A stretch of 64,000 nucleotides of DNA from an uncultured Candidatus Saccharibacteria bacterium. Lineage in GTDB: Bacteria > Patescibacteriota > Minisyncoccia > Phycocordibacterales > PALSA-1337. Shown here in pieces: positions 37,669 to 50,483 of this stretch. The stretch is taken from positions 5,789-69,788 of the forward strand of contig CAZYBH010000003.1 of assembly GCA_964645315.1 (NCBI GenBank). The letters run 5' to 3'. Under the pieces are notes generated by a model. The model did no database searches and was not told where the DNA came from. It saw nothing but the letters and a program-made list of their open reading frames with translations. The position numbers and the translations under genes were made by a program. Positions within the stretch are counted from its first letter, which is position 1; each line of letters begins with the position of its first letter.

Positions 37669-37994
37669 TCCGGAGTAGCTCAGCGGTAGAGCAGTCGCCT
37701 GTGGAGTTCGCAGCTTCCACAAGAAATTGTGGATGACAAACGAGGTGAATTCGGGGAAACCCCAAATGTAAATAAGGGCAATCCCGAGCCAATCCCATCT
37801 TTGTGATGGGCAGGTGTAGAGACTATCCTTTCCAGGAGTAGTGCGAAGTGAAATATCTTCAAACGAAGCGCCTCGTCCCTAAATTATCAAGTTGGAAACT
37901 CGATAACATGGGAATGATATAGTCCGTCCCTATTAGTAATAGTAGGATAAGCGTAAGCGATTGGTCACAGGTTCGAATCCTGTCTCCGGAGCCC
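37669..37994 (+). tRNA. tRNA-Asn (GUU) interrupted by a group I intron; exons 37669..37702 and 37954..37994
   Basis: Exons splice to UCCGGAGUAGCUCAGCGGUAGAGCAGUCGCCUGU|UAAGCGAUUGGUCACAGGUUCGAAUCCUGUCUCCGGAGCC. U1-A72, G73 and anticodon loop CUGUUAA match bacterial tRNA-Asn (compare B. subtilis tRNA-Asn). Anticodon stem is GUCGC/GCGAU. Confidence 0.8.
37703..37953 (+). ncRNA. group I intron (~251 nt) in the tRNA-Asn anticodon loop, between anticodon positions 35 and 36
   Basis: Conserved core elements: P-like AAUUCGGGGAAA, Q-like AAUCCCGAGCC, R-like GGUGUAGAGACUAUCC, S-like AUGAUAUAGUCC (P7 GACUA/UAGUC). P9 hairpin with GUAA tetraloop. The 5' exon ends in U, which pairs with G37710 in a short P1. 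The intron ends in G (37953). Confidence 0.7.
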
Positions 37995-39614
37995 TAGTGA
38001 CGAAACCTCACATTTTGTGGGGTTTTGTCTTTTATTGCTTGATATTTTAGAGGTTCGAGCGCGCTCTAATTCTTCTTCGACCGCCTGACGACTTTTGATG
38101 ATCGTTTTAATGAAAGAATGGTAATTTACAAAGACCTTTTTGCCTTTTAGGGTGAGGTTCGAGCCAAGGCATGCGAGTATCGCTCTTTTGGCTTTATCAT
38201 CTCCTTTTTCAAACCAAATGTGGGCGTAGCAAGCGAAGTCAAAGGTCTGCTCGGTGAGTTCCACCCACTCCAATACCTCTCTGTTTTTCGTCTTCAATTC
38301 TTCTTCGAGTGCCAGTTTCTTTTTTACTATTCCAACCTTGAGCGTTTGGTATTCTTCATCAGTAATTATCGCTCGCTCACTGTTTGCTGGCGAGGTGAAG
38401 TTGAGTGTCAGTGACTGCAAATTCTTGGTGACTTCCTCAAGCTCTTTGTGCTTGCCTTTGAGGACCACAGAATCGCTGTCAACTTCTGTTTTTCGCAGTT
38501 CATGGAGGTGCTTGATTGCCCAGTCTTTGAATCTTTCCGAAATGGTGATCTCACTGAGCTTTTGTTTTATATCAAGTTCCAAGTTCTTAAGCTCTATCAC
38601 TTTCTCCGGACACTTCACGTCTACTTTTTTCTTGGTGCAATTGTAGTAAACGTAGTGGTGAACATTGCCGTTCTTACATCGCTTTACTTTCGCCTGTGCA
38701 GTGATACTACAGCCACACGTGCCGCATTTCATAAGCGAGGTGAAGGCAAAGCTGCGCTCTGGCCGAGGTCGTGGTTGCATGGTTCTTCCCATGATCTGTT
38801 GGACCTTATTGAATTCTTCTTCGGTTATCATGGCTTCATGTGCGCCTTTGTGCCATTCTCCGCTTTTGTAGGGATATTCAAACCAGCCGTAATAAAAGGG
38901 GTTGCTTAGGAGTGCATAGATGCCGCTTTTAGAAAGATGCTTGCCACCCATATTTCTTCGTTGATACGTTTTCAAATTCAACTCCTTACGAGCCACATCC
39001 CATATTTGAATTGTGCTGTAGTTACCGGTAAGCATGAGGTCAAAGAGTCTCTTTACCACAGGAAAACGTTCAGGGTCCTTCATGATGGTCTTGAATCCTT
39101 TTTCTCGGTCTGGTGTGCTCATATATCCCACAGGACACATGCTTGGTAGCCAGCCTTCTCGGACCTTCTTTGCAAGACCTCGCTTTACGTTTACTGATAA
39201 GTCTCTGATGTACTGGTTGGCCATGCCAAGCTCAACTTGCATCATGAGGACATTGTCCGTTGGGTAGTATGTTCGGCCGAATGTCACAATCTGTGCGATT
39301 GCACTTTGCTGTAGCATCCAGCTTATTTGTCCACCGTCCACAGGGTTGCGTGCAAGGCGGTCCAGTTTCCAACAGATGATTCCATTCGCTTCGCCTTTGT
39401 AAATTCTCTCAAGCATTTTGTTGAATACTGGTCTTCCTGGTTTCTTGGCCGATTGTGATTCGGTAAGGACCTCAACTATCGCCAAGCCTTGCTCTTCTGC
39501 AATCTTCAAGAGTTCATCTTTCTGAGCATCGATTGATGCCGCTTGTCTGTCTTCCGCCTCGCTTGATTTACGAGCGTAGAGGAAGTATTTGATTGTAGGT
39601 GTTTTATTATTCAT
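37965..39614 (-). CDS. large serine recombinase (resolvase/invertase-type catalytic domain + recombinase domain + zinc-ribbon)
   Basis: IKYFLYARKSSEAEDRQ...SIDAQ (catalytic Ser) and LDRLARN motifs. C-terminal Cys-rich region. The 3' end overlaps the last ~30 nt of the tRNA-Asn gene. Start taken at MNNKTPTIKY (39614). Confidence 0.85.
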   Translation of the reverse strand: MNNKTPTIKYFLYARKSSEAEDRQAASIDAQKDELLKIAEEQGLAIVEVLTESQSAKKPGRPVFNKMLERIYKGEANGIICWKLDRLARNPVDGGQISWMLQQSAIAQIVTFGRTYYPTDNVLMMQVELGMANQYIRDLSVNVKRGLAKKVREGWLPSMCPVGYMSTPDREKGFKTIMKDPERFPVVKRLFDLMLTGNYSTIQIWDVARKELNLKTYQRRNMGGKHLSKSGIYALLSNPFYYGWFEYPYKSGEWHKGAHEAMITEEEFNKVQQIMGRTMQPRPRPERSFAFTSLMKCGTCGCSITAQAKVKRCKNGNVHHYVYYNCTKKKVDVKCPEKVIELKNLELDIKQKLSEITISERFKDWAIKHLHELRKTEVDSDSVVLKGKHKELEEVTKNLQSLTLNFTSPANSERAIITDEEYQTLKVGIVKKKLALEEELKTKNREVLEWVELTEQTFDFACYAHIWFEKGDDKAKRAILACLGSNLTLKGKKVFVNYHSFIKTIIKSRQAVEEELERARTSKISSNKRQNPTKCEVSSLGLRRQDSNL

Positions 39615-40452
39615 ATGCGCTTTTAATGTTATCTTCCGACCGTTTTTCACCGTTTTTAAATGGTGGTTTTTGCTCTATGGCAGTTACATTATCGTCACTG
39701 CGTGGTTCCCGTAATTTTCCCGTTATTTCGGGAAAGGTCGTCTCACCGGGCTGACGAACGACAGTATCCCCAGAAGGGTCTCGAATAGCAACTGATTCCT
39801 GACTTCTTGGCATCTGCCATTTCTGCATTGTTCCCCTTAACACATCTCCAATGTGAGTTACAGAATTAGGAGAGTTTTTTCTTAGGTTAGTTAGAGTTTC
39901 ATTATCATCACTGCGATATGGTCGCTTATTGTAACTGCGAGGGCGTTGTTTTTGTAACTGCGGTGGTGCCTCGGATATCTTTATTTTTCGATTCCAGTTA
40001 GGGACCGGCAACCATAGCTCGCTCGCATGGAAAGTGTAGAGATTTACCATGTTGAACATACCATCAGCTCTCGTAACGCCGATAATGCCGTAGCCTTCGA
40101 GGATGCGAATTGCCTTAATGATGCTACTTCTGTTTTTACTGCCGACGAGTTCCTGAATGGTAGTGATACTTGGAAACGCCGCCTGGCTTTCGGTGTTGCA
40201 GTGGACCAAAAGCGCCATATATACTGACGTACATAACTTTGAGAGTGTTGCAAGATATCCGCCTTGCACATATTCGTTATCAACGAAGAACCTGCTCGAC
40301 TTATTCTTTTTGCGAAGTTTGGACCGATCTATCTTGTCATGCAGTCTGTTGAGGTAGGCTTTCTTTTGATTGTGGTTGAGGTCCTTTCTTGTTTTTGATT
40401 TGTCTCTTAGTATCCACTCGATCAATTCCTTGTCGTTTTCCATATTCTTCAA
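39607..40452 (-). CDS. hypothetical protein with central HTH-like segment (possible replication/regulatory protein)
   Basis: FPSITTIQELVGSKNRSSIIKAIRILEGYGII resembles a winged-helix/HTH. The N-terminal region overlaps the 40337..40600 ORF in another frame. Confidence 0.45.
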   Translation of the reverse strand: MKNMENDKELIEWILRDKSKTRKDLNHNQKKAYLNRLHDKIDRSKLRKKNKSSRFFVDNEYVQGGYLATLSKLCTSVYMALLVHCNTESQAAFPSITTIQELVGSKNRSSIIKAIRILEGYGIIGVTRADGMFNMVNLYTFHASELWLPVPNWNRKIKISEAPPQLQKQRPRSYNKRPYRSDDNETLTNLRKNSPNSVTHIGDVLRGTMQKWQMPRSQESVAIRDPSGDTVVRQPGETTFPEITGKLREPRSDDNVTAIEQKPPFKNGEKRSEDNIKSAYE

Positions 40453-40600
40453 GCCACGCTTTCTTTATTGGTCGGTAGACGAAGTTAAAAAGCGTGAGCA
40501 AATTAATTGCCTCATTAGCAAGAACGTCATCAGGAAAGACTGTGCCGGTTTCTTCCAGGTGAAGTTGTTTATATTCTTCTAGTGCGTGTTTGGTAAGCAT
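40337..40600 (-). CDS. hypothetical small protein (87 aa); possibly the 5' part of a frameshifted gene together with 39607..40452
   Basis: Track ORF. Overlaps the next ORF by 116 nt in a different frame. Confidence 0.3.
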   Translation of the reverse strand: MLTKHALEEYKQLHLEETGTVFPDDVLANEAINLLTLFNFVYRPIKKAWLEEYGKRQGIDRVDTKRQIKNKKGPQPQSKESLPQQTA

Positions 40601-40630
40601 AATGAGGGGTTCGACCTTTTGTATGAGGTA

Positions 40631-40669
40631 GTGCTCTTCCCAAGAAACAGAAAGAGCTGAGCCCCCATT
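40631..40669 (-). terminator. hairpin aaagagctgag...ctcagctcttt (11-bp stem)
   Basis: Seen directly, between the HerA 3' end and the next minus-strand gene. Confidence 0.4.
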
Positions 40670-40870
40670 GCAAGTTGACTCAGCTCTTTCCGTGCAATGG
40701 GTATCTTTATCCTAGAATCGAAATTCGTACTAAATGTAGGAATTACTTCTCTAAGATGATCTCATCGTACTGCTCTCAAACGGTAAAAAATGGTGCATTA
40801 CTTTGACCGCTTGAAATAAGGGTATTTTCGTGAATTTCGGTGGTTACTGTGCCATAGACGCAAAAACCCC

Positions 40871-40897
40871 TGAATAGGGGTTGAAAAGCGTACACAG
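40871..40897 (-). terminator. rho-independent terminator just after the HerA stop (cccccuauucagggg + U-run on the minus strand)
   Basis: + strand aaaaacccctgaataggggg. On the minus strand the hairpin is followed by uuuuug. Confidence 0.6.
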
Positions 40898-40914
40898 GGG
40901 CGTTTAGGGGGTAA

Positions 40915-42789
40915 TTAGGCTTTCTTCCACAGATCATCTAAATCTATCGTACCACTTTGAGGCCTTCGTTTCTTATCAAGAAGCTTAATTTTTAAAGAAA
41001 GTGGAAATTGAGTCATTTGTCCAGCAATAAAACAGCAACCTGTAGCAAGGTTTGAAATCGAGTCAAAAGAAAGCTTATCCAAATAACTTACCGCCTTATT
41101 AACTGACTTTAAATCATTTTCGTTCATCAATTTGTGAATAAAATAATTATGAAGCTGAGAAATTATGGTGGGAGAAATATCAGATGGTCTCTGACTAGCA
41201 ATTGTAAGAAAAACTCCAAACTTTCTACCTTCCTTTATTATTTCCTCAAACGTTTCTAGACGATAATCTTTCCAAGTTTCAGACTCTCTTACAGAGTTTT
41301 CAGATAAAATGTTATGTGCCTCGTCAATAATAATATGGAGGGATGTATTATTTTTATAAGTTTTTTTCTGATTCTCGTATAACTTTTTTAGAATGACTAA
41401 TGGCAAAGATTTTTTAATATCTCTATTGGCAGATTTTAGATCTATAACTACCAAGTTGTTGCCTTTTCCAAAAATATTCTTTTTAGCATTTGTACTAGTG
41501 TCAAAGACTTTCTGAATGCTTTTTTTGACACTTTCAAGTCTAGTTATGCAATGATAGACGTGGTCATCGTGAACTCTGTTATCTAGCAAATCATAAAGTA
41601 ATTGCATTCTTGCAAAGTCGAGGAACTTTTCAATTATATTGTCAGGAAATACATAAGTATCTGCCTGAGTATAAAATACTTGTGATTTATATTGCTCGTC
41701 AGTTATCTGGTCATAATCAGTAGTTCCACCACATTTAAAGTATGAATGGGTATTATGCCATTCAGGAATAACAAAATCTTGGTTGTCAGTTTCAATCTTA
41801 AGTATTTGTTTGTATCGATCTATACACAAAAATGCCAGTTCTTTATTTTTTAATTTCAAAATTCTGAGCGCTATTAACTTCAAGTTATTTTTGAAATAGT
41901 CATTAGAATTGTTTTCTTTTGTTATCTTTTTAAATAAGCTTATCGAGCGATTCAAAAATGGCTTTTGTGTTTTTTCACTAGCACCAGAAAGTATTGATAT
42001 AAGTTCAATATCAATAAAACCATTTTCGTTCAAAGGAACACGATTTTTGTTATTTATTTTTTCTAACTCAATTTCAGTATTAAGTTTATATACTTTTTTC
42101 TTTTTACTAAGAACATCTGAAGATGAGTATTCACCATTAAAATCAATAAATATAAACTTGGATTTGGATTTAAATTTTTCATTAAGATTTTCTAATCCAA
42201 ATAGTTCTGCATACATTTTTGCAAGAGTATTTGATTTACCAGACCCTGTATTGCCAAAAATACCAATATGACCTGCAAATAGTTTTTTAGCTGAAATTGA
42301 AATATCTTGAGTCTCTTCATCAATCAGTGATCCAAGGGTAACGGAAAGCTCTTTTTCATCAGAAAGCTGATGTAATATTTCAAATTCTTCTCTAGAAAGA
42401 AGTTTACATTCACTACCAATTAGAGGCATTTCTTTGATACCGTGTTGAAAGTTAAAATCGCTATCATAGAATCCAAAAACTGAAACATTGAGAAATCGGC
42501 TTATCTTCTTATTCTCATTTGTATATTTTTTCTTAGTTTGATATCTATCCTCTTCGAGATACTCACCCTCGACTTTACAAATTATTTCAGTAAAACCTTT
42601 AACTATTTTCACATAGTTGGATAGCCCAACAGAAACATTTTTTATTGTTCTACCTTTAAAAAATAGATGAGGGAGATTCTTGTCATTCTTTACCTTAACA
42701 ACAATATCTTTGCCCTTAACACTAAATACACTGCCAATGGTAAATACGGAATTATCAACTAGTCTTTCATGTAAATTAAAGTTGTTCAT
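40915..42789 (-). CDS. herA: HerA-like (DUF87/FtsK-HerA superfamily) ATPase, SIR2-HerA defense system component
   Basis: Walker A IGIFGNTGSGKSNTL and Walker B LHIIIDEAHNIL (DEAH). Start taken at MNNFNLHERL (42789), which overlaps the SIR2 stop by 14 nt. Confidence 0.8.
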   Translation of the reverse strand: MNNFNLHERLVDNSVFTIGSVFSVKGKDIVVKVKNDKNLPHLFFKGRTIKNVSVGLSNYVKIVKGFTEIICKVEGEYLEEDRYQTKKKYTNENKKISRFLNVSVFGFYDSDFNFQHGIKEMPLIGSECKLLSREEFEILHQLSDEKELSVTLGSLIDEETQDISISAKKLFAGHIGIFGNTGSGKSNTLAKMYAELFGLENLNEKFKSKSKFIFIDFNGEYSSSDVLSKKKKVYKLNTEIELEKINNKNRVPLNENGFIDIELISILSGASEKTQKPFLNRSISLFKKITKENNSNDYFKNNLKLIALRILKLKNKELAFLCIDRYKQILKIETDNQDFVIPEWHNTHSYFKCGGTTDYDQITDEQYKSQVFYTQADTYVFPDNIIEKFLDFARMQLLYDLLDNRVHDDHVYHCITRLESVKKSIQKVFDTSTNAKKNIFGKGNNLVVIDLKSANRDIKKSLPLVILKKLYENQKKTYKNNTSLHIIIDEAHNILSENSVRESETWKDYRLETFEEIIKEGRKFGVFLTIASQRPSDISPTIISQLHNYFIHKLMNENDLKSVNKAVSYLDKLSFDSISNLATGCCFIAGQMTQFPLSLKIKLLDKKRRPQSGTIDLDDLWKKA

Positions 42790-43789
42790 CGTCTTTATCC
42801 GGTTCAAGGACCTCTTGTTCTTTATTTGTGAATATACCAGAAAGGAATTCTGTGCTTTTTTCAAATGGCAAATTATTTTCTACATAGAAGTTTGACTTTT
42901 TCTTTTCCTCTAGATCATCTACCACTTCATCGTATTCTTTGTGATAAAGATAAACTACTATTAGGGTCGGATTGTTCTTCATTACACCGTAAAGTAACTC
43001 TCTTATATGTTTATCTTTAAGAGAAAATCCTAATATAAACAAAACACTATTTTCTTTTTCCAGCTCTAACGTAAACTTCCTTAGCATGGAAGCGTAATTA
43101 GTATCTAGAACTGTTTCAAGGTGTTTTTCTGCATTTGGATTGATGACAGCAACTTGTTTATACCCTGTAGCAAAATCATTCCCGGTTTTACTATCCAGAT
43201 CATCAGCAATATGCGAACCATTTGAATAGATGATTTTTTCCTCTTTTGTCTTCCAAGAAAGTGAACCGTGAAGTTTAATGATATTGAAAAGTGGAATGTC
43301 GGAAGTGTTATCAAATTGAAGGCTCTTATATTTTTGAATTTTGTTAAAATTTGCCACGCTAAATACTGAATTGATTTGCCCGGCAAATCCATCATTGTAC
43401 GGTATACCTAAACGCTCACAGGCATCTTCTATAAACATGTCAAAGTTCGTGCTGAAAATATTGACTTGTTTATTTACGATATGTAATGATCGACGGGAAA
43501 TAGTATCAGCCCAAAAATTTAAAAATGTATCATAGTTCTGTTTGGTTTTAGTAAGCTTACCTTGTTCTGCCACATCCACCTCAAAGGTTGAATTTAGAAT
43601 AGCTTTTGATTTGCGGATGATCTTATAATAATCTTTTTGTGCGACCTCTTTGGTAGCATCATTATTCATTCGGTTTTCAATGTCTTGCAGGGTCGAAAGA
43701 TAGTCAAGAGAACAACCAGAACCAATAAGTAGATTTATGTGGCCACTTTGAATTATTTCTTTGAGTTCTTTTTTATCGATTTTTTTCAT
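42776..43789 (-). CDS. SIR2-like NADase domain protein, SIR2-HerA defense system component
   Basis: INLLIGSGCS (GAGIS-like), FSTNFDMF (TQNID-like) and IIKLHGSLSW (catalytic HG) motifs. Lies immediately upstream of HerA in the same orientation. Confidence 0.8.
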   Translation of the reverse strand: MKKIDKKELKEIIQSGHINLLIGSGCSLDYLSTLQDIENRMNNDATKEVAQKDYYKIIRKSKAILNSTFEVDVAEQGKLTKTKQNYDTFLNFWADTISRRSLHIVNKQVNIFSTNFDMFIEDACERLGIPYNDGFAGQINSVFSVANFNKIQKYKSLQFDNTSDIPLFNIIKLHGSLSWKTKEEKIIYSNGSHIADDLDSKTGNDFATGYKQVAVINPNAEKHLETVLDTNYASMLRKFTLELEKENSVLFILGFSLKDKHIRELLYGVMKNNPTLIVVYLYHKEYDEVVDDLEEKKKSNFYVENNLPFEKSTEFLSGIFTNKEQEVLEPDKDDEQL

Positions 43790-46101
43790 ACTTTTAATTT
43801 GACCCACTCACTCCAATCACCACGTTCGCATTTTTCCCAGTTGTAAGTAGATTCTTGGTTTAATGTCCAATCTCCATTTCTCTCAATCACAACACCACCA
43901 AAAAGCTTTTTATTCTTCTGGGTCTTTATGTATTGGTACAAAGCCTCAGCCTTAGCTTTTGTGTAAGTTTTACCATCACGATCACCTGAATCCTTTACTT
44001 CAAATATACCGATCTTTCCATCAGTGAATTGGACCAGATAGTCCGGATAGAAAGTATAGATAGCACCAGAGTATTCATACTTCACGCCAAAGTATTCCTG
44101 TTTGTTTTCTCCATTTTTCCACCACCAAGTTATTTTTGAGCTATTATCATTCAAAAACTTCTCAAAAGATTTCTCGGGTAGGGATCGGTCAATGTTTAGG
44201 TAGCATGGCTGATAGGCATACTTTTTGGTAGGAACAATTTCATCAGTAAATTCGTTATAAAAAAGCTCTATAGGGAGTTCAAAAGCATATTTCTTTTCGC
44301 TTTCTTCTACTCGCTTTCGGACCTCAGCCTCTTTGACCGTCTTGTATTCATCGACTGCCTTAGTAAGAATCTTTTCAATCGCTGGACGATTGTCTTTGTG
44401 CATACAAAGCTTTTGAATGAGGAGTATTTCCTCATGCCAATCTTCTGAATTGAGGTATTTTCTGAACCACAAATAAATAGCAGTCTTTACGCTTGGAATA
44501 GAGCGCTTAACATTTCTAAATGGACCGAGCTGTGACTTAATCATTTGCTCAAAGAAAATCTGCAATTCATCAGCAGCAACACTAAGCTTTGCCATAGCAG
44601 TGGGATCTATATTTCCTTGAAGTTCATCAAAGTTTTTAGCACTGATATGAGTGTCAGCAATAATTTGTTGCTGGTACTTTTCAAGCTCAACATCAATACC
44701 CATATTCTTGAGTGACGTCTTGATCTTCACCAGTTTCTCACCATCTTCTATACCAAGTTCTCTGTTTACTACCTTTTCAAATACCGGCGTAAAGCTTGAG
44801 GTGATGTCTCCGTAATCAGCACGTGCTTTATAGTAAGAATCAATTTTGAGCGGCTTATACTCCTTAACTCTATTAGCCTTTAGATGTTTGATTATGTTTG
44901 GATTGTATTCTTCTTTCTTAACTGAAATAGATTCCAAGTTTGTATAGATGTAACCACGATTAAGAGCCTCATTTTCATAATGCTTTTGTTCTGGCATACG
45001 TAAGATTCGTCCGACAGTCTGTATTTCAAAAACAATATTCGAAGATTCTCTAAACTTCACAAGAATATGAGCACGAGGACAGTCCCATCCAGTATCAATT
45101 GCTTGTTTGAATATCAAAAACTCAATCTGATTGTCCGATTCAGAAATCCACTCGATAGTGTCTGATTTTTGTTCAGCAAGCCAAATAGCAAGCTTTCCAT
45201 TTTTCTCTGTAATACCCTTATCACCAAGAAACTTTTTAACAGCATCAATCTTTTGATCACCAGCCTCGGATGTAGGAATCTGTATTAAGACAAGAGGATT
45301 AATATCAGAATCTTCTTTTGCAAAAGCCTTCTTAAGTTCAAGACGTTTTTTATATGCCGCCTCTAAGACTGCTGTCTGTGAATCATCTTCTGATTTTGCA
45401 ATCTTCTCAATATCCTCATTGATGATGAGCTCTTTCTTAATCATCCCTTCTTCGATAACGTCTTTTGGATTCACCTTTACCAATCCAGCGCGAGTTTCAA
45501 CAATATCTTCAGCTGTAATTTTTATACTTGGTGTGGCACTCATTTCAATCGTTACATCGGCAGCAATAAGCTCACGAAGTTCCTGAGCGCGACCTGTAGA
45601 TGCGTTGGTGTGACTCTCATCAATAATAAGAATTATCTTTCTCTGTTCTTTAGTTTTTTCAAGTACATCACGGAAATTAAGTTTCTCACCATCTTTCATG
45701 GCGAGGTTTTTCCAATCACCAGACTTACCATCCTTGGCACGTAGTTTTTCCCAGTTTGCCACTACGACTTCATTCTGAACAATACGCTCTCTACCACCAC
45801 TAAATTCACCCTCAACAAGTGAGACACGAGGAAAACCCCCGAAGATTCGCTCGAGAGATCGCTTACTCTGTCCATGAAGATCACCTTTACCAATACTCAT
45901 CCAAATAAAACAAAGATCTTCGTTTGGAAGTTCTTTTATAAGACTCTCTATAAAAATAGCAGTCATGACAGTCTTGCCTGATCCGGTAGGGGCTTGAAAT
46001 ACACAAACTTCACCAGGACCGTCAAAATCCAAAAGTTTAACTGTCGTGTCAACAAGCTGGTTGACTGCTTTTTCTTGATAGGGTTTTAAATTAATACTCA
46101 T
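43786..46101 (-). CDS. res: Type III restriction enzyme Res subunit (SF2 helicase + C-terminal PD-(D/E)xK nuclease)
   Basis: FQAPTGSGKT (motif I), IIDESH (motif II), MSATP (motif III), QTVGRILR (motif VI), and C-terminal PDYLVQFTDGKIGIFEVKD. Confidence 0.85.
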   Translation of the reverse strand: MSINLKPYQEKAVNQLVDTTVKLLDFDGPGEVCVFQAPTGSGKTVMTAIFIESLIKELPNEDLCFIWMSIGKGDLHGQSKRSLERIFGGFPRVSLVEGEFSGGRERIVQNEVVVANWEKLRAKDGKSGDWKNLAMKDGEKLNFRDVLEKTKEQRKIILIIDESHTNASTGRAQELRELIAADVTIEMSATPSIKITAEDIVETRAGLVKVNPKDVIEEGMIKKELIINEDIEKIAKSEDDSQTAVLEAAYKKRLELKKAFAKEDSDINPLVLIQIPTSEAGDQKIDAVKKFLGDKGITEKNGKLAIWLAEQKSDTIEWISESDNQIEFLIFKQAIDTGWDCPRAHILVKFRESSNIVFEIQTVGRILRMPEQKHYENEALNRGYIYTNLESISVKKEEYNPNIIKHLKANRVKEYKPLKIDSYYKARADYGDITSSFTPVFEKVVNRELGIEDGEKLVKIKTSLKNMGIDVELEKYQQQIIADTHISAKNFDELQGNIDPTAMAKLSVAADELQIFFEQMIKSQLGPFRNVKRSIPSVKTAIYLWFRKYLNSEDWHEEILLIQKLCMHKDNRPAIEKILTKAVDEYKTVKEAEVRKRVEESEKKYAFELPIELFYNEFTDEIVPTKKYAYQPCYLNIDRSLPEKSFEKFLNDNSSKITWWWKNGENKQEYFGVKYEYSGAIYTFYPDYLVQFTDGKIGIFEVKDSGDRDGKTYTKAKAEALYQYIKTQKNKKLFGGVVIERNGDWTLNQESTYNWEKCERGDWSEWVKLKV

Positions 46102-47920
46102 AAATTTGTTTGTATACGTCTAGAATCTTTTGTGGAATTGGCTCGACCGTAACATCTTTCCATCCACTAAAATCTTTTTTATTTAATCCAAGAGGATCAA
46201 GAGTAAAACAGTAGAGAATCTTTTCTCCTTCGATCTTACTTAAATCCTTTTTAAGTTCTGATAAGGCCTTCCGATCTAGGGAATAGTAGGCGGCAAGAAC
46301 CCTATTACCTTTCTGGAATACTCTATAATCATCAGTTGTTTTTACTTCATCAAAAATACCTTCACGTAGACAAAGCATTTCTGTACATTCCTTTGTCATA
46401 CGGATCTTCAAATCATCTTTGTTTGCAGTTTTCTTGATGAATTTAGTTTTGAAGTATTTTAGAGATCCTACACCAGTATTTGTGAGAACATTGTTTAATC
46501 TAGGATATGTTTTTTCGAGACAAATATTTTCTTCATTATTTGTACATAAAATAAATTTATGTTGCGTACCTTTATCCTTATTAAGCTCTACAACCGCATG
46601 GCCTGTTGATCCACTTCCTGCAAAAAAGTCTAGAATTGTCGCATTATCATCTGAAACAAAATGAATTAGTTGCTTTATCAATCTAATTGGTTTTTTACCA
46701 TTCTTAAAATCAATCCCACCTTCTTTAGCAACGTTACCCATATCAAGATAAAAGCCTGGCCACCAGTCACCCCTGATAGTAGTTACACCGTAAGTTTGGT
46801 AATAGTCATCAGCCTTTCTAACTTTATCTGATAAGCGAATTCTTTGTTTATATTCTCCCTTACCGTTATATCCAACTAAATAAGATCGATCATTTGAGCC
46901 ATACTCAATTAAGATACCCTCTTTAACTTTAGATAGAACTTCTTTGTCTTTTATCTCTACAGTATCGTGAATACGAACAATCTGATCTGCTTTTTTATTT
47001 ATAAAATCTCTTACTTCATCAAGTTTTGCATAAGCATCAGAGATTTGATTATTAGTCATCGATCTCTTTCCTTTTGAATCTTTAGCTAAATTCAAAAAAC
47101 ATAATTTTTCAAATATCTTGTTATCCGCACATAAAACGCTTGTGAGTGATGTCTCTGAATAAGTTCCATCCGTATTTTTATTTATAAACAGGGAGTAGTG
47201 ATTGTCGTATTCAATCGGATCGTACAAAACATTTTTTCCGATAGTCTTTCTTCCATCTTTTGAATACACAAGAATATACTCGGCATTTTTTACTATATTA
47301 CCCATCTTTGCTGATCTTACTTTTTGACCTTGGACCGTAGACATCTGAACGTGCAAAGTGGTAACAAAATTATTTAAACCAAAAACCTCATCGCACAGTA
47401 GTCTAAGCTGAGACTGTTCATTGTCATCTATCGAAATAAAAATAACTCCAGTCTCTCTCAGTAGATTTTTTGCTAATCGCAACCTTTTTGACATGAAAGA
47501 CAACCATTTGCTGTGTTTATATTCGTCCTCACTATCAACATAATTGTCGTTATAAATAAAATCCCTATTACCAGTGTTGTAGGGTGGGTCAATATAAATA
47601 ACATCAACTTTTCCTTGATGAGTGAAATTTAAGACAGAGAGTGCATGGTAGTTATCGCCCTCAATCAATATGTTTACTGGTCTAGTGTCGTCTTTGTCAG
47701 TAATTTCTTTTCCTTTTACTTCCTTAAGAACTGGTAGTGCATTTTCGGCATCTTTCTCGAACTGTTCTTTCACCTTATCTTCATCCCAGATAAGTCCATA
47801 TTTCTTTCGAGATTCAAGCTTTTCTACAATTTTAATTAGATCCTCTTTGCTAAGGTTGGAATAATCTTTCTTTGAATTCTTATTGGTTGCAATGGGATTC
47901 ATTACACAACACTTTACCAT
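46091..47920 (-). CDS. mod: Type III R-M Mod subunit (beta-class N6-adenine DNA methyltransferase)
   Basis: DPPY (motif IV: IYIDPPYNTGN) precedes motif I FxGxG (ILDFFAGSGSTG). Overlaps the res start by 11 nt. An alternative start is MNPIATN at 47902. Confidence 0.85.
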   Translation of the reverse strand: MVKCCVMNPIATNKNSKKDYSNLSKEDLIKIVEKLESRKKYGLIWDEDKVKEQFEKDAENALPVLKEVKGKEITDKDDTRPVNILIEGDNYHALSVLNFTHQGKVDVIYIDPPYNTGNRDFIYNDNYVDSEDEYKHSKWLSFMSKRLRLAKNLLRETGVIFISIDDNEQSQLRLLCDEVFGLNNFVTTLHVQMSTVQGQKVRSAKMGNIVKNAEYILVYSKDGRKTIGKNVLYDPIEYDNHYSLFINKNTDGTYSETSLTSVLCADNKIFEKLCFLNLAKDSKGKRSMTNNQISDAYAKLDEVRDFINKKADQIVRIHDTVEIKDKEVLSKVKEGILIEYGSNDRSYLVGYNGKGEYKQRIRLSDKVRKADDYYQTYGVTTIRGDWWPGFYLDMGNVAKEGGIDFKNGKKPIRLIKQLIHFVSDDNATILDFFAGSGSTGHAVVELNKDKGTQHKFILCTNNEENICLEKTYPRLNNVLTNTGVGSLKYFKTKFIKKTANKDDLKIRMTKECTEMLCLREGIFDEVKTTDDYRVFQKGNRVLAAYYSLDRKALSELKKDLSKIEGEKILYCFTLDPLGLNKKDFSGWKDVTVEPIPQKILDVYKQIYEY

Positions 47921-48045
47921 TTTTTGCCCTAAAAATAAAGATTTTTTGAGTTCATGAATTATTTAACATCAAGCTCAATAATAGCCTTATAAACAAAGAT
48001 TATTTCACCTCTCTCTCTTCAGACACGATTTAACATTTTGTATCT

Positions 48046-48100
48046 AAATTTAAAGTTGGGGGCTTAACTTTAAATTTGCCGATTCCAAATTAAAAGTTAC
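48046..48100. promoter_or_regulatory. three alternating half-sites AAATTTAAAGTT / AACTTTAAATTT / AAATTAAAAGTT, ~130-180 bp upstream of mod; near-identical element at 62459..62512
   Basis: Half-sites at 48046..48057, 48066..48077 and 48087..48098. The last overlaps the stop codon of the Zn-ribbon gene. Confidence 0.55.
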
Positions 48101-48390
48101 TGTCCGGTCCACTCTTGCTCACAAACCGCACATTGTACATAGCCGGTATGTTCAAAATTGTTGGTAAATCCATTAGATTGATACGTTTTTGTTGTCTCAT
48201 CCCAGTAGAACTCGTCATCGATAATAGTTTCTACAAGTTTACGATCAGAGCCACAAAACTGACAGGTGTGTTTTGGATATTTTTTAGTCTTTCTTTCCAT
48301 ACGGACGATCATTGATCGAAGGCTGGAAGAAGTCAATGAAAAGCTAAAACCGCCCATTTCGAGACGGTTTCGGATACTCCTTCTACGCAT
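48097..48390 (-). CDS. small zinc-ribbon protein (CxxC ... CxxC)
   Basis: CQFCGS ... CAVCEQ. 97 aa. Confidence 0.5.
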   Translation of the reverse strand: MRRRSIRNRLEMGGFSFSLTSSSLRSMIVRMERKTKKYPKHTCQFCGSDRKLVETIIDDEFYWDETTKTYQSNGFTNNFEHTGYVQCAVCEQEWTGQ

Positions 48391-48422
48391 GGCAGACGAG
48401 ATAATATAAATATAACTTTCTT

Positions 48423-48770
48423 TTATTCAATCACAAAATCTAGCTGTTCCTCTGGAATGCCTAATGATCGGCCATAATCGCAGGCATCCTTCCATGTTTC
48501 CTTTTGATTGTACTTAAACTCAAAGACTTTGTCTTTAAATACAGCGATTACATCGTTACCGTTCCAAAAATGCATATACCACTTGCCGGACTTGATATAT
48601 CGAGAAACTTTTTGAATATCATCCTTAGTAACTTTTACTGTATACAAATGCCATCGATCGGCAGGATTCTCATCTTTTGAAATTCTAAGACCACTGATAT
48701 CTAAGTCATTAATAATTCTATTATCTTCAAGACTTTCTTCTACGATTGTGCCCTTATAAGTTATGTTCAT
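48423..48770 (-). CDS. hypothetical protein (115 aa)
   Basis: Track ORF, tightly packed between neighbouring genes on the same strand. Confidence 0.45.
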   Translation of the reverse strand: MNITYKGTIVEESLEDNRIINDLDISGLRISKDENPADRWHLYTVKVTKDDIQKVSRYIKSGKWYMHFWNGNDVIAVFKDKVFEFKYNQKETWKDACDYGRSLGIPEEQLDFVIE

Positions 48771-48771
48771 G

Positions 48772-49518
48772 TTATTTATTTAAATTAAAAGTAAAACCAT
48801 TTCTACTCCAAAACCAAAGAGGTGGATGCATATCAATAGGATCAATACCGCTGTTTTTTAGTAAATCTCTCCACCGTTCTGAAATTGCATCTTTTGTTAA
48901 ATTGGTTGCCTCTTCTGGAGAAATTACACCTAGTTTTACTGAGCATTGAGTAATGTGAGTATCGGGTGCAATTTCTATTTGGTCCCGATTATTTAGACCA
49001 ATTTTACCGTAAGTACTTATAATAAATGACCAATAATTAAATATCTTCGGACCAGATAAATAAGGAAATCCTTTCTTATGCTCAACCTTAACAAGCTGTT
49101 TTAAATTAATAAAATCACTGTCTATTGTTTCAAAGAATTTTGTGAACGAACCCCATTCTTCATGAATTGTCTTTGCGATTATTCTCCATGTATTCACGTG
49201 TTTATTAGGTTGAAGTGCAACTTTATATTTCATTAGTGCCTTACGAACCTCATCTTCCGAAGCCTTAGAGACAGCTTTTACATCAAATACAAATCTAGTG
49301 TCGGCGTCATTAAAAGTCTTGAGCGCAGATTCCCATAATTTATAACTATCTCGCTGATAGTTTAAGGCCATTGGTAAAGTAAAATATGCGATTCTAAATT
49401 CTTTGTCTGTATCAGAAAAGTCTGGACTTGAGTCTTCTGGCATAACAGTTTGTCCGAGCTTACCTGATTTAAAAGCATCAATGAGTGTTTTGCAATTTTT
49501 GAGTAAGTCTTTATTCAT
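48772..49518 (-). CDS. HhH-GPD superfamily DNA glycosylase-like protein
   Basis: GFPYLSGPKIFNYWSFII (HhH-like hairpin region) followed by IEIAPDTHITQCSVKLGV. Compare the VDTHVxRVxxRLG catalytic Asp region of Endo III/AlkA-type glycosylases. Confidence 0.5.
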   Translation of the reverse strand: MNKDLLKNCKTLIDAFKSGKLGQTVMPEDSSPDFSDTDKEFRIAYFTLPMALNYQRDSYKLWESALKTFNDADTRFVFDVKAVSKASEDEVRKALMKYKVALQPNKHVNTWRIIAKTIHEEWGSFTKFFETIDSDFINLKQLVKVEHKKGFPYLSGPKIFNYWSFIISTYGKIGLNNRDQIEIAPDTHITQCSVKLGVISPEEATNLTKDAISERWRDLLKNSGIDPIDMHPPLWFWSRNGFTFNLNK

Positions 49519-49573
49519 TAGTTAATTGCAATTTTATCATTTTTGACTCTTTTTTGCTAAAATAGTAATCACT

Positions 49574-50107
49574 ATGACATTAATCTACATACTCACTGGA
49601 ATCATTGTTGTTATTGGTGTTGTTGTTGGACTTCTGAAAGATAAGTTTGATTTTATAGACGATAAACCAAAATATAACTATAAACGTCGCAATTGGTTTC
49701 TAACTAAAGCTGAACATGAATTTTATGATGCACTTGTGAAAGTGGTCGGTAACGATTACATCATCTTTGCTCAAGTTCATTTACCAACACTTCTTGAACA
49801 TAAGGTCGTAGGACAAAACTGGAATGCAGCATTCAGACATGTGAGTCAAAAGTCTGTAGACTTCGTACTTTGTGACAAAGCGTACATTTCTCCAAAGCTT
49901 GCTATTGAGCTTGATGATAAGTCACATGAAAGGCCTGATCGTGTGGACCGAGATATTGAAGTTGAGCGTATTCTTAAGGGCGCAGGTCTGCCACTTATAA
50001 GGATCCAAAATCATGGAACATTTAATCCTCAAGAGTTAGCTCAAAAGATTAGGATCGCTATAAATCCTAGCGATACTTCGCCATCTCTTTCTCAGTCGGC
50101 CTCGTAA
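49574..50107 (+). CDS. DUF2726-like protein with N-terminal TM helix (predicted restriction-endonuclease-like fold)
   Basis: FLTKAEHEFYDAL ... YIIFAQV ... VDFVLCD ... IELDDKSH, resembling DUF2726. Confidence 0.55.
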   Translation: MTLIYILTGIIVVIGVVVGLLKDKFDFIDDKPKYNYKRRNWFLTKAEHEFYDALVKVVGNDYIIFAQVHLPTLLEHKVVGQNWNAAFRHVSQKSVDFVLCDKAYISPKLAIELDDKSHERPDRVDRDIEVERILKGAGLPLIRIQNHGTFNPQELAQKIRIAINPSDTSPSLSQSAS

Positions 50108-50121
50108 TTCCAAAGAAACCC

Positions 50122-50191
50122 TGCTTGATATTCGGTAGCCAAATATGGGCTTTATTCGTCTTCCAAAAGGTTCCTATTTCTCGTGCAATGT
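50122..50191. repeat. ~70-bp direct repeat, copy 1 (copy 2 at 50415..50483, ~90% identical)
   Basis: tgcttgatatt.ggtagccaaatatggg..ttattc...ttccaaaaggttcctatttctcgtgcaatgt is present twice. Each copy ends at an ATG. Confidence 0.75.
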
Positions 50192-50400: not shown

Positions 50401-50414
50401 ATAATACATAACCT

Positions 50415-50483
50415 TGCTTGATATTTGTAGCCAAATATGGGCCTTATTCTCTTTCCAAAAGGTTCCTATTTCTCGTGCAATGT
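50415..50483. repeat. ~70-bp direct repeat, copy 2
   Basis: See 50122..50191. The terminal ATG (50479) opens a 35-codon ORF, MLQMKNRTSIMLEAILLSHHLLFNPHVALNSFKYF. Confidence 0.75.

What the first reader, a model, noticed from the sequence alone, without database searches (positions are those of the whole stretch)
40915..47920. Type III R-M (mod-res) and SIR2-HerA antiphage module fused into one overlapping four-gene operon
On the minus strand the genes run mod (47920) to res to SIR2 to HerA (40915), with 11-nt, ~1-nt and 14-nt stop/start overlaps. A single terminator follows HerA, and no internal terminators occur. Type III Mod/Res motifs, the SIR2 motifs and the HerA Walker A/B are all seen directly. 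SIR2-HerA is an established abortive-infection-type defense system, and Type III RM is well known. Their tight translational coupling as one transcription unit suggests co-regulated or even functionally coupled defense, for example a SIR2-HerA second layer behind restriction. Defense systems are reported to be sparse in small-genome lineages, which makes this dense array notable if the host is CPR-like.
Basis: partly seen in the sequence, partly recalled or inferred. Interest (0 to 1): 0.65.

Follow-up and report, generated by a model that had tools for sequence, protein, structure and literature searches.

The report
Restriction operon carrying a SIR2-HerA module
A tiny-genome (CPR/Patescibacteria) bacterium carries a Type III restriction-modification system and a SIR2-HerA NAD-depleting antiphage module as four overlapping genes beside a tRNA gene; relatives of this SIR2-HerA module sit at the ends of at least ten other kinds of restriction operon, which suggests restriction and abortive infection are wired together.

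Summary
On the minus strand, mod (46091-47920), res (43786-46101), SIR2 (42776-43789) and herA (40915-42789) overlap by 11, 4 (not ~1) and 14 nt. All catalytic motifs are intact, and profile matches are strong (PADLOC MTase_III 4e-85, SIR2 1e-49, HerA 7e-169). A terminator-like hairpin follows herA. The host is Patescibacteria. The cassette lies in a variable region beside tRNA-Asn, next to a large serine recombinase, and a 96-98% identical strain lacks it.

The exact four-gene order recurs in only three other loci. The same Type III system (Res 97% identical) also occurs without SIR2-HerA. The wider pattern is that, in 31 of 45 loci of this SIR2-HerA clade, the pair sits co-directionally at the 3' end of an RM operon of at least ten architectures. 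In one locus it sits between mod and res. The median gap is about 11 nt. Nearly identical SIR2-HerA modules are joined to different RM systems. Distal flank genes (0 of 52) and distant SIR2-HerA homologues (1 of 8) lack the association.

My best reading is a co-transcribed two-layer defence in which restriction-made DNA ends may license SIR2-HerA. That last step is inferred. Earlier papers hinted at such links, so I rate it a new variant of a known kind.

The parts
47921..48096 (-). 176-nt AT-rich spacer upstream of mod; presumed operon promoter region (not mapped)
   Evidence: This is the only sizeable non-coding gap upstream of the four genes. About 240 nt upstream of mod is conserved at 77% with the related Type III locus L055. 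The consensus scan found no sigma-70 match here.
46091..47920 (-). mod: Type III beta-class N6-adenine DNA methyltransferase (609 aa; alternative start 47902)
   Evidence: PF01555 1.4e-30 and PADLOC MTase_III 4e-85. DPPY at aa 111-114 lies before FAGSGST at aa 433-439. The central part (about 46465-47404) is not conserved with L055 or L010, as expected for a target-recognition domain.
43786..46101 (-). res: Type III restriction subunit (771 aa), an SF2 helicase with a C-terminal PD-(D/E)xK motif
   Evidence: PF04851 7e-17 and PADLOC REase_III 3.5e-18. Motifs I, II, III and VI, and PD(686)...EVK(703), are present. A source names a >=90% identical cluster member 'type III restriction enzyme'. 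It overlaps mod by 11 nt.
42776..43789 (-). SIR2-family NADase-type effector (337 aa)
   Evidence: PF13289 1.6e-14, PADLOC SIR2 1e-49, NCBIfam SIR2_antiphage 3.5e-25 (below that model's cut-off). It aligns to SIR2 chains of solved SIR2-HerA complexes (8j4u, 8w9l, 8yhx), with TNFD and KLHGS conserved. Its ATG overlaps the res stop as ATGA.
40915..42789 (-). herA: HerA/FtsK-type hexameric ATPase partner of SIR2 (624 aa)
   Evidence: PADLOC HerA PDLC04097 6.6e-169 end to end, and PF01935 1.6e-17. It matches HerA chains of solved SIR2-HerA complexes (8yho, 8j4u_M, 8wiv). Walker A GNTGSGKS and Walker B IIDEAH are present. It overlaps SIR2 by 14 nt.
40862..40882 (-). Intrinsic-terminator-like hairpin (AACCCCU-AUUC-AGGGGUU, then U-run) after herA
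   Evidence: RNA fold -19.2 kcal/mol, z = -2.8 against shuffles. A second hairpin at 40652-40666 was found by the scan.
39607..40452 (-). HTH_36 DNA-binding protein of the island (281 aa)
   Evidence: PF13730 5e-7. It overlaps the recombinase gene. GC is 43%, against 30-38% for the defence genes.
37965..39650 (-). Large serine recombinase (561 aa), the likely mobility gene of the island; its last codons overlap the tRNA 3' exon
   Evidence: Resolvase, Recombinase and Zn_ribbon_recom domains. NCBIfam gives XisF/Ccr-like matches. Homologous recombinases flank SIR2-HerA cassettes in L004, L010, L024, L036, L051, L068 and L070.
37669..37991 (+). tRNA-Asn(GUU) split by a 251-nt group I intron (37703-37953); marks the left edge of the variable region
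   Evidence: Rfam RF00028, 73 bits. The exons match the intron-less tRNA-Asn of the related strain L052. Synteny with L052 ends at the tRNA. A Logan contig equals window 37963-50190 exactly, and another stops at 37992.

Best explanation
The locus is a compact, horizontally acquired defence cassette in a Patescibacteria (CPR) genome. A complete Type III restriction-modification system (mod, res) and a complete SIR2-HerA module are transcribed as one unit. The promoter lies upstream of mod and the terminator after herA, and translation is coupled at each junction.

Shown:
- The identity and intactness of all four genes.
- The overlaps between them.
- The absence of any spacer that could hold a SIR2-HerA promoter.
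- The location in a strain-variable region next to tRNA-Asn and a large serine recombinase.
- This SIR2-HerA clade is, in about two thirds of loci, appended co-directionally to the 3' end of RM operons of many unrelated types. Once it is inserted between mod and res.
- Modules have been swapped recently between RM types.

Inferred mechanism:
1. Mod methylates host sites.
2. Mod-Res cuts unmodified incoming DNA.
3. The resulting linear DNA ends load the HerA hexamer of the SIR2-HerA complex. This drives ATP hydrolysis and releases the SIR2 NADase, as shown for an E. coli Sir2-HerA in which DNA ends license the NADase.
4. So when restriction engages but does not clear the phage, NAD+ is depleted and the infected cell is arrested.

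In this reading the RM system supplies self/non-self discrimination and SIR2-HerA supplies an abortive second layer. The coupling is facultative, because both modules also exist on their own.
For: Gene identities and motifs. Overlaps. Terminator.

Host and island:
- The host is CPR.
- A strain 96-98% identical in nucleotide sequence lacks the cassette and differs from the tRNA-Asn onward.
- Composition is mosaic: herA 30%, SIR2 33%, res 38%, recombinase 45% GC.

Comparative evidence:
- In a first sample of 36 assessable loci, 28 have an RM operon directly abutting SIR2-HerA.
The total is 31 of 45, all co-directional.
- Gaps include six ATGA overlaps, a median of about 11 nt, and 20 of 26 at <=34 nt.
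- Similarity between loci begins exactly at the SIR2 ATG.
- L051 has mod-SIR2-herA-res. Its Mod and Res are 62% and 71% identical to those of L012, which has mod-res-SIR2-herA.
- HerA proteins 96% identical sit behind AlwI-type and EcoRI-MTase/HNH-type systems. HerA proteins 91% identical sit behind Type III and HpaII-type systems.

Controls:
- 0 of 52 distal flank ORFs resemble RM genes.
- 1 of 8 distant SIR2-HerA loci has an adjacent RM.

Literature:
- DNA ends activate the Sir2-HerA ATPase and license the NADase (PMC13434337).
- How infection is sensed was called unclear in PMC11514289 and PMC11472057.
Against: - Nothing was measured, neither transcripts nor proteins. Co-transcription is inferred from geometry alone.
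- Four to six same-clade loci (72-78% HerA identity) have no RM in the operon and have a 100-280 nt spacer upstream of SIR2. The module can therefore run alone.
- The second sample gave 3 of 9, against 28 of 36 in the first. The frequency is heterogeneous and the first estimate may be too high.
- SIR2/HerA pairs cloned alone protect in S. thermophilus and Lactococcus (PMC11514479), and in E. coli and Paenibacillus systems.
- The same Type III RM (Res 97% aa, 86% nt) occurs with DUF4145 instead of SIR2-HerA. A 63% relative carries an AAA ATPase plus S8 peptidase instead. The slot after res is therefore generic.
- RM systems are the commonest defence genes, so some adjacency is expected in any defence island.
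- The DNA-end result comes from a distant E. coli subtype whose triggers are phage proteins.
Confidence: 0.45

Rival explanations
1. The two systems are biochemically independent and merely share a transcript and a vehicle. Selection for compact, co-transferred, co-expressed defence cargo on mobile islands, together with streamlined CPR genomes, packs SIR2-HerA behind whichever RM is present. SIR2-HerA senses phage by its own route, for example phage SSB-like proteins, regardless of restriction.
For: - Stand-alone same-clade loci exist.
- Cloned SIR2/HerA pairs work alone (PMC11514479).
- Phage proteins trigger an E. coli Sir2-HerA.
- The slot after res also holds DUF4145, T5orf172, or AAA plus S8 protease.
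- Serine recombinases lie next to many cassettes.
- RM systems are the most abundant defence genes (general knowledge).
Against: - Chance or island clustering predicts mixed orientations and ordinary spacers. Instead, 31 of 33 RM systems lying within about 3 kb are co-directional and abutting, many with ATGA overlaps.
- Near-identical modules have repeatedly re-docked onto RM systems rather than onto other operons.
- One insertion splits mod from res.
- The pattern also holds outside CPR, in Saprospiraceae, Dormibacterota, Bdellovibrionales and Ignavibacteriaceae.
Confidence: 0.35
2. A guard model like PrrC-EcoprrI. The RM proteins bind SIR2-HerA and hold it silent. Phage anti-restriction proteins that disable the RM complex release it, and abortive infection follows.
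For: - The topology matches. An effector gene sits inside or at the end of an RM operon, and L051 has the effector between mod and res as prrC sits within the EcoprrI genes (the PrrC link is discussed in PMC3506569).
- Translational coupling would favour co-assembly.
Against: - At least ten unrelated RM architectures share no common protein that SIR2-HerA could bind.
- HerA proteins 96% identical pair with unrelated RM enzymes.
- The module also exists with no RM.
- Solved SIR2-HerA complexes are self-contained.
Confidence: 0.08
3. A selfish-stabilisation model. The RM system acts mainly as an addiction module, through post-segregational killing, that keeps the island and its SIR2-HerA cargo in the genome. 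Alternatively, SIR2-HerA is a promoter-less cassette that parasitises any constitutively expressed mobile operon.
For: - There is no conserved sequence upstream of the SIR2 ATG.
- The cassette sits in a strain-variable, recombinase-bearing region.
- RM addiction behaviour is established (general knowledge).
Against: - It does not explain why the host operon is almost always an RM and not another mobile operon.
- It does not explain placement downstream rather than anywhere on the island.
- Type III systems are weak addiction modules compared with Type II systems (general knowledge).
Confidence: 0.07

Closest known systems
SIR2-HerA antiphage system (Nezha / PADLOC GAO_19; E. coli, Paenibacillus and S. 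aureus systems with solved complexes)
   Same: It has the same two-gene core, with SIR2 upstream of and overlapping herA. The SIR2_2 domain keeps the catalytic Asn and His motifs. HerA keeps Walker A and B. There are direct sequence matches to the chains of solved complexes.
   Different: It is distant in sequence: matches to the solved SIR2 chains reach only E about 1e-15 to 1e-11, and to the HerA chains E about 1e-31 to 1e-18, over part of the query. It has no promoter spacer of its own and is the 3' half of an RM operon. The studied systems and distant plasmid homologues are stand-alone pairs with 110-1300 nt upstream spacers.
Type III restriction-modification systems (EcoP15I / EcoP1I type)
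   Same: The order is mod then res, with an overlap. Mod is beta-class, with DPPY before FxGxG and a variable middle region. Res has SF2 helicase motifs and a C-terminal PD-(D/E)xK motif.
   Different: Res is short (771 aa). Its endonuclease region is seen only as a motif, not as a Pfam RE_endonuc match. The operon continues into two further defence genes.
PrrC anticodon nuclease embedded in the Type Ic EcoprrI operon
   Same: An abortive-infection effector is encoded within or at the end of an RM operon. The close topological parallel is L051, with mod-SIR2-herA-res. The concept of RM-linked suicide modules, naming Sir2 with Type I and III systems, appears in PMC3506569.
   Different: PrrC is held in check by one specific RM complex. 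Here one effector clade pairs with at least ten unrelated RM architectures. The effector chemistry is NAD+ depletion, not tRNA cleavage.
SIR2/HerA (GAO_19) in the Streptococcus thermophilus CR3 defence island
   Same: It is reported as 'inserted between ... or downstream of ... R/M systems' (PMC11514479). This is the same kind of neighbourhood.
   Different: It was described as island organisation in one species, and the pair was shown to act alone when cloned. No operon fusion, cross-RM-type pattern or module swapping was reported. It belongs to a different, distant SIR2-HerA lineage; Lactobacillales homologues are about 31-34% identical to the window HerA.
E. coli type III Sir2-HerA gating by DNA ends (PMC13434337)
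   Same: It provides the biochemical precedent for the inferred step. Linear DNA with exposed ends, but not supercoiled DNA, turns on the complex's ATPase and licenses the NADase.
   Different: In that system the ends are made by HerA's own nickase after phage SSB/Gp5.9 triggering. Here the ends are proposed to come from the co-encoded restriction enzyme, which is untested.

Membership tests
Type III restriction-modification system | Mod is a beta-class N6-adenine methyltransferase: motif IV (DPPY) precedes motif I (FxGxG), with a target-recognition region between them. | tested here: met
   DPPY at aa 111-114 and FAGSGST at aa 433-439. PF01555 1.4e-30. The top eleven PADLOC hits are MTase_III, the best at 4e-85.
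Type III restriction-modification system | Res has SF2 helicase/ATPase motifs and a C-terminal PD-(D/E)xK nuclease. | tested here: met
   PTGSGKT, DESH, SATP and QTVGRILR are present, and PD686...E701-V-K703. PF04851 7e-17 and PADLOC REase_III 3.5e-18. The nuclease is supported by the motif only, with no Pfam RE_endonuc hit.
Type III restriction-modification system | mod lies immediately upstream of res in one operon. | tested here: met
   There is an 11-nt overlap. The same pair is conserved in L010, L045, L055, L056 and L057.
Type III restriction-modification system | ATP-dependent cleavage requires two inversely oriented unmethylated sites, with hemimethylation by Mod. | not testable with these tools
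   This needs enzymology or methylome data.
SIR2-HerA (Nezha / GAO_19) | A SIR2_2-family protein with a Rossmann Gly-rich motif and catalytic Asn and His. | tested here: met
   PF13289 1.6e-14 and PADLOC SIR2 1e-49. GSGCS, TNFD and KLHGS are present and align to TNYD and KLHGS of 8j4u_A and 8w9l_A.
SIR2-HerA (Nezha / GAO_19) | A HerA-type ATPase with Walker A and B, encoded directly downstream of SIR2. | tested here: met
   PADLOC HerA 6.6e-169 across 610 of 618 model positions. Walker A and B are present. There is a 14-nt overlap with SIR2. The pair is conserved wherever the contig allows, about 50 loci in all.
SIR2-HerA (Nezha / GAO_19) | NCBIfam equivalog cut-offs (SIR2_antiphage 500 bits; HerA_antiphage 800 bits). 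| tested here: not met
   Scores are 88.8 and 137.4 bits. It is a member of the broad family but not of the narrow equivalog groups, which is consistent with a separate clade.
SIR2-HerA (Nezha / GAO_19) | A HerA6-SIR2(12-14) complex with NADase activity and phage protection. | not testable with these tools
   This needs biochemistry and phage assays.
RM-embedded abortive effector (PrrC-EcoprrI type guard) | The effector gene lies inside or at the end of the RM operon. | tested here: met
   Window: appended after res with an ATGA overlap. L051: between mod and res.
RM-embedded abortive effector (PrrC-EcoprrI type guard) | The effector is physically silenced by its RM partner and released by a phage anti-restriction factor. 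| not testable with these tools
   Indirect evidence argues against it. One effector clade pairs with at least ten unrelated RM types, and near-identical HerA proteins pair with different RM systems.

The most novel reading that the evidence does not exclude
This SIR2-HerA clade is a portable, usually promoter-less 'restriction-licensed abortive infection' cassette. It plugs into the 3' end, or the middle, of any RM operon and uses the DNA ends made by that restriction enzyme as its infection signal. The RM system would then act as the non-self sensor for an NAD+-depleting suicide response. That would name a physiological trigger for a SIR2-HerA lineage. It would also define a general wiring between innate 'immune' (RM) and 'suicide' (Abi) defence that has so far been argued mostly from the PrrC case.
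Probability: 0.3. Interest if true: 0.8.

Novelty: new variant of a known kind. Interest (0 to 1): 0.6.

Why it matters
How SIR2-HerA senses infection has been described as unclear. Only in 2026 was DNA-end licensing shown, for one E. coli subtype. A lineage that is repeatedly and recently re-attached to restriction operons of unrelated types points to a simple hypothesis that can be tested directly: restriction cleavage products are the signal. The test needs four constructs, namely the operon, a nuclease-dead Res, a SIR2-HerA deletion, and methylated versus unmethylated phage.

The finding also gives a concrete and abundant example of the long-proposed coupling between immunity and programmed dormancy or suicide. 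It shows that small-genome CPR bacteria, which depend heavily on RM systems, can add an abortive layer at a cost of 3 kb and no extra regulatory DNA. For annotation, tools that call 'RM' and 'SIR2-HerA' as separate systems miss the fact that they form one unit here.

Tried and rejected
- att-site search. I looked for a second copy of the tRNA 3' end and for long direct or inverted repeats around the island. There was none. This is unsurprising for a serine recombinase, so the right island boundary stays uncertain, at about 48.4 kb or 50.19 kb.
- Conservation of the exact four-gene order. It is found in only L010, L045 and L046. I therefore dropped the idea of a conserved 'Type III + SIR2-HerA system' in favour of a modular association.
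- Viral contigs. There are no HerA relatives. The two Res relatives carry other accessory genes, so there is no evidence that the cassette is phage-borne.
- PADLOC and NCBIfam on the small neighbouring ORFs (97, 115 and 248 aa, HTH_36, DUF2726). There were no defence-family hits, so I did not count them as parts of the system.
- Remnants of RM genes upstream of the RM-less loci. Only L018 has one, a decayed GmrSD_N-HNH gene.
- Promoter scan. No consensus site lies between or just upstream of the junctions. This is uninformative for CPR promoters, so I did not lean on it.
- MADS-like reading. Both Res and HerA give weak PADLOC mad8 hits. I rejected this because the E-values (1e-3 and 6e-20) are dwarfed by the REase_III and HerA matches.
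- The first sample suggested 78% RM linkage. The deliberate second sample gave 3 of 9, so I report the pooled 31 of 45 and the heterogeneity, not the higher figure.

Full report
**1. What is in the window**

Four long ORFs lie head to tail on the minus strand.

| Gene | Coordinates | Length |
|---|---|---|
| mod | 46091-47920 | 609 aa |
| res | 43786-46101 | 771 aa |
| SIR2 | 42776-43789 | 337 aa |
| herA | 40915-42789 | 624 aa |

Junctions read from the sequence:
- mod/res overlap by 11 nt (ATGAGTATTAA).
- res/SIR2 overlap by 4 nt (ATGA).
- SIR2/herA overlap by 14 nt (ATGAACAACTTTAA).

An independent gene call on an identical public contig uses the same SIR2 and herA starts.

**2. Identity of the genes**

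- **Mod.** It matches PF01555 (1.4e-30) and PADLOC MTase_III (4e-85). The motif order is that of Type III Mod proteins: DPPY at aa 111-114, then FAGSGST at aa 433-439.
- **Res.** It matches PF04851 (7e-17) and PADLOC REase_III (3.5e-18). It carries helicase motifs I, II, III and VI and a C-terminal PD...EVK motif. Its nuclease region is supported only by that motif.
- **SIR2.** It matches PF13289 (1.6e-14) and PADLOC SIR2 (1e-49). It aligns to the SIR2 chains of solved SIR2-HerA complexes, with TNFD and KLHGS conserved.
- **HerA.** It matches a PADLOC HerA model end to end (6.6e-169) and the HerA chains of the same solved complexes. Walker A and B are intact.
- **NCBIfam.** Both SIR2 and HerA fall far below the NCBIfam equivalog cut-offs. 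This marks them as a separate clade within the family.

**3. Signals around the genes**

- A 7-bp GC-rich hairpin with a U-run follows herA at about 40862-40882. Its fold energy is z = -2.8 against shuffles.
- A second hairpin lies at 40652-40666.
- One terminator-like consensus match lies inside res. The number of such matches in the region is not above the shuffled expectation.
- No promoter-like match lies within 300 nt upstream of SIR2.
- The only real spacer is the 176 nt upstream of mod.
- Co-transcription is therefore the simplest reading. It is inferred from geometry and has not been measured.

**4. Host and genomic setting**

- Named homologues of the window's MurA are all Patescibacteria (Paceibacterota, Parcubacteria and others) at 56-60% identity. 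Flanking genes are housekeeping genes.
- Downstream of herA lie an HTH_36 protein and a large serine recombinase.
- The last codons of the recombinase gene overlap the 3' exon of a tRNA-Asn(GUU). This tRNA is interrupted by a 251-nt group I intron.
- A strain 96-98% identical in nucleotide sequence (L052, a 569-kb contig) has the same tRNA without the intron. It has none of recombinase, HTH, herA, SIR2, res or mod. Synteny resumes partly at 48427 and fully from about 51.9 kb.
- One public assembly holds window 37963-50190 as a separate contig. Another stops at 37992. This is what a strain-variable insertion produces.
- GC content is mosaic: herA 30%, SIR2 33%, res 38%, mod 33%, recombinase 45% and core about 40%.
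- A Type IIG RM enzyme lies 11 kb away at 59303-62383.

**5. Is the four-gene order conserved?**

Not as such. HerA relatives were collected from species-representative genomes. SIR2 relatives were collected from metagenome contigs.
- The SIR2-herA pair is always kept.
- A window-type Mod/Res (67-73% identical) precedes it only in L010, L045 and L046.
- Conversely, a Res 97% identical in protein (86% in DNA) occurs in another genome (L055) with its Mod. There, DNA similarity to the window stops exactly at the res stop codon, and a DUF4145 gene follows instead of SIR2.
- A 63% identical Res on a viral contig is followed by an AAA ATPase and an S8 peptidase.
- L010 has a T5orf172 gene between res and SIR2.

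The position after res is therefore a slot for exchangeable accessory genes, and the RM part and the SIR2-HerA part are separable modules.

**6. The wider pattern**

The genes immediately upstream of SIR2, on the same strand, proved to be RM systems of many different kinds:

| RM architecture | Loci |
|---|---|
| Type III, family a | window, L010, L045/L046 |
| Type III, family b | L012, L051 |
| HsdR-like plus fused HsdM-HsdS | L002, L006, L009, L017, L020 |
| Canonical Type I HsdR/M/S | L067 |
| EcoRI-family methylase plus GmrSD_N-HNH nuclease | L004, L014, L015, L019/L044, L040, L042, L049, L063, L070 |
| RadC-Dam, Dam and AlwI | L003/L038, L041, L043 |
| C5 methylase plus HpaII, with or without Vsr | L023, L024 |
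| HaeIII plus C5 methylase | L035/L036/L039 |
| Eco57I-type IIG enzyme | L034 |
| PLD-SNF2 helicase plus Eco57I-family methylase | L013 |
| N6_N4 methylase, partner unknown | L031 |

- In L008 and L018 the RM lies just downstream of herA. L018 also keeps a decayed HNH gene upstream.
- In L051 the pair lies between mod and res. Its Mod and Res are 62% and 71% identical to those of L012, where the pair lies after res.

**7. How strong is the association?**

- After collapsing near-duplicates, 28 of 36 assessable loci in the first sample have an RM operon abutting SIR2-HerA.
  - Three have an RM in the operon (L063, L067, L070).
  - Two have an RM within 1-3 kb but not co-oriented (L064, L068).
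  - Four have none (L062, L065, L066, L069).
- Pooled, the figure is 31 of 45. The two samples differ, so the true frequency is uncertain and probably varies between sub-lineages. Selecting long contigs may also disfavour strain-variable islands.
- All 31 are co-directional with SIR2-HerA.
- Spacing between the last RM gene and the SIR2 ATG includes six ATGA overlaps, has a median of about 11 nt, and is <=34 nt in 20 of 26 loci.
- RM-less loci have 100-280 nt upstream of SIR2.
- Sequence similarity between loci begins exactly at the SIR2 ATG. The upstream sequences are unrelated.
- Control 1: none of 52 ORFs of at least 200 aa from the distal flanks of the same loci resembles any of the RM proteins. 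None of the 25 Pfam families listed for them is an RM family.
- Control 2: among distant SIR2-HerA homologues (30-41% HerA identity), only 1 of 8 has an adjacent RM. The plasmid-borne ones are stand-alone pairs with their own spacers.

**8. Module swapping**

- HerA proteins of L003 (behind AlwI) and L004 (behind EcoRI-methylase/HNH) are 96% identical.
- HerA proteins of L010 (Type III) and L023 (HpaII) are 91% identical.
- SIR2 proteins of L014 and L024 are 93% identical but sit behind different RM systems.
- The window's HerA is closest (81-82%) to one behind a Type I-like system. HerA proteins behind window-type Type III systems are only 56-63% identical to it.

The junction has therefore been re-formed many times and recently, and nearly always with an RM partner.

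**9. How it most likely works**

Shown: the gene content, the operon geometry, the mobile setting and the recurrent docking onto RM operons.

Established for the families (my knowledge and the cited papers):
- Type III Mod methylates host sites, and Mod-Res cuts unmodified DNA.
- SIR2-HerA forms a HerA hexamer with a SIR2 12- to 14-mer complex. Its NADase depletes NAD+ and aborts infection (PMC11472057 and PMC11514289).
- In an E. coli subtype, linear DNA with exposed ends, but not supercoiled DNA, switches on the complex's ATPase. This lifts ATP inhibition and licenses the NADase (PMC13434337).

Inferred: in this clade the co-encoded restriction enzyme supplies those DNA ends. SIR2-HerA would then fire when restriction engages foreign DNA but does not stop it. 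This explains why the partner can be any RM type, since the shared output is cut DNA and not a shared protein. I put about 0.45 on this overall reading.

**10. Rival explanations**

- **Independent systems sharing a transcript (about 0.35).** The two systems act independently and are packed together only for co-expression and co-transfer. This is supported by the RM-less same-clade loci, by cloned SIR2/HerA pairs that work alone (PMC11514479), and by the generic accessory slot after res.
- **PrrC-like guard (about 0.08).** This is unlikely because one effector clade pairs with at least ten unrelated RM architectures.
- **Addiction or promoter-parasite model (about 0.07).** This does not explain the preference for RM operons.

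**11. Relation to what is known**

- All four proteins belong to known families.
- Makarova and colleagues noted in 2012 that Type I and III RM systems include toxin-like genes, Sir2 among them. They proposed coupling of immunity and suicide (PMC3506569).
- A 2024 study noted SIR2/HerA pairs 'inserted between or downstream of' RM systems in one S. thermophilus island (PMC11514479).
- My literature searches found no report of the following:
  - operon-level fusion;
  - one SIR2-HerA clade docking onto many RM types;
  - an insertion between mod and res;
  - recent module swapping;
  - a proposal that restriction products trigger SIR2-HerA.
- The library is incomplete, so absence there is not proof.
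- I rate the finding a new variant of a known kind, with interest 0.6.

Noticed in passing
window 37669-37991 (+); intron 37703-37953: tRNA-Asn(GUU) carries a 251-nt group I intron in the anticodon loop. The 5' exon ends in U and the intron ends in G. ARAGORN misses the gene. A strain 96-98% identical (L052 12295-12367) has the same tRNA without the intron, so intron presence varies within a CPR population.
   Followed up: partly
window 37965-38000: The large serine recombinase ORF ends inside the tRNA-Asn 3' exon. Synteny with the related strain breaks exactly at the tRNA 3' end, and public assemblies break there too (one contig ends at 37992, another starts at 37963). No att repeat was found, so the right end of the island is undefined.
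   Followed up: partly
window 50117-50191 and 50410-50483: A direct repeat of about 75 nt (57-nt core, 93% identical) occurs 293 nt apart and brackets a small ORF. A 97-nt stretch overlapping the first copy (50082-50178) is 88% identical to DNA just upstream of the related Type III RM in L055. It may be a small mobile or regulatory element linked to the RM module.
   Followed up: partly
window 59303-62383 (-): A second restriction system lies here: a single-polypeptide Type IIG/ISP-like enzyme of 1026 aa (PADLOC REase_MTase_IIG 2e-279; Pfam N6_Mtase plus Type_ISP_C). The 64-kb window therefore holds three defence systems.
   Followed up: partly
L002 11885-12634; L012 10126-10881; L043 12911-13660; L045 5719-6465; L046 4121-4867: A PD-(D/E)XK nuclease gene of about 248 aa (PF12705 in L002 and L045) sits 6-60 nt downstream of herA in five loci. 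A conserved small ORF of about 100-120 aa often follows. It may be an optional third component. It is absent from the window.
   Followed up: partly
L055 12295-13002; L056 10475-14036; L010 8270-8926: The position directly after res of this Type III family holds different accessory genes in different genomes: DUF4145, an AAA ATPase plus S8 subtilase pair (on an IMG/VR viral contig), or a T5orf172/GIY-YIG-like gene. This suggests a general accessory slot.
   Followed up: partly
L003 4591-6399; L024 3523-5187: RadC-like JAB domains are fused to the N-terminus of DNA methyltransferases (RadC-Dam, RadC-C5 methylase) in the RM operons that precede SIR2-HerA. The role of the RadC domain in an RM methylase is unclear.
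   Followed up: no
L004, L010, L024, L036, L043, L051, L068, L070 and the window: Large serine recombinases (28-44% identical to the window's where they were compared by BLAST; L068 and L070 were identified from Pfam domains only) lie within a few kb of many SIR2-HerA cassettes in unrelated phyla. This hints at a shared family of integrative elements that carries them.
   Followed up: no
window 49574-50107 (+); L010 12947-13180: A DUF2726 (nuclease-related) gene lies near the cassette both in the window and in the Bdellovibrionales locus L010 (32% identity). PADLOC gives no hit.
   Followed up: no
L070 3604-3810: A 68-aa HTH_3 protein directly precedes the EcoRI-methylase/HNH/SIR2/herA genes. 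It looks like an RM controller (C) protein. If so, SIR2-HerA expression there would fall under RM establishment control.
   Followed up: no
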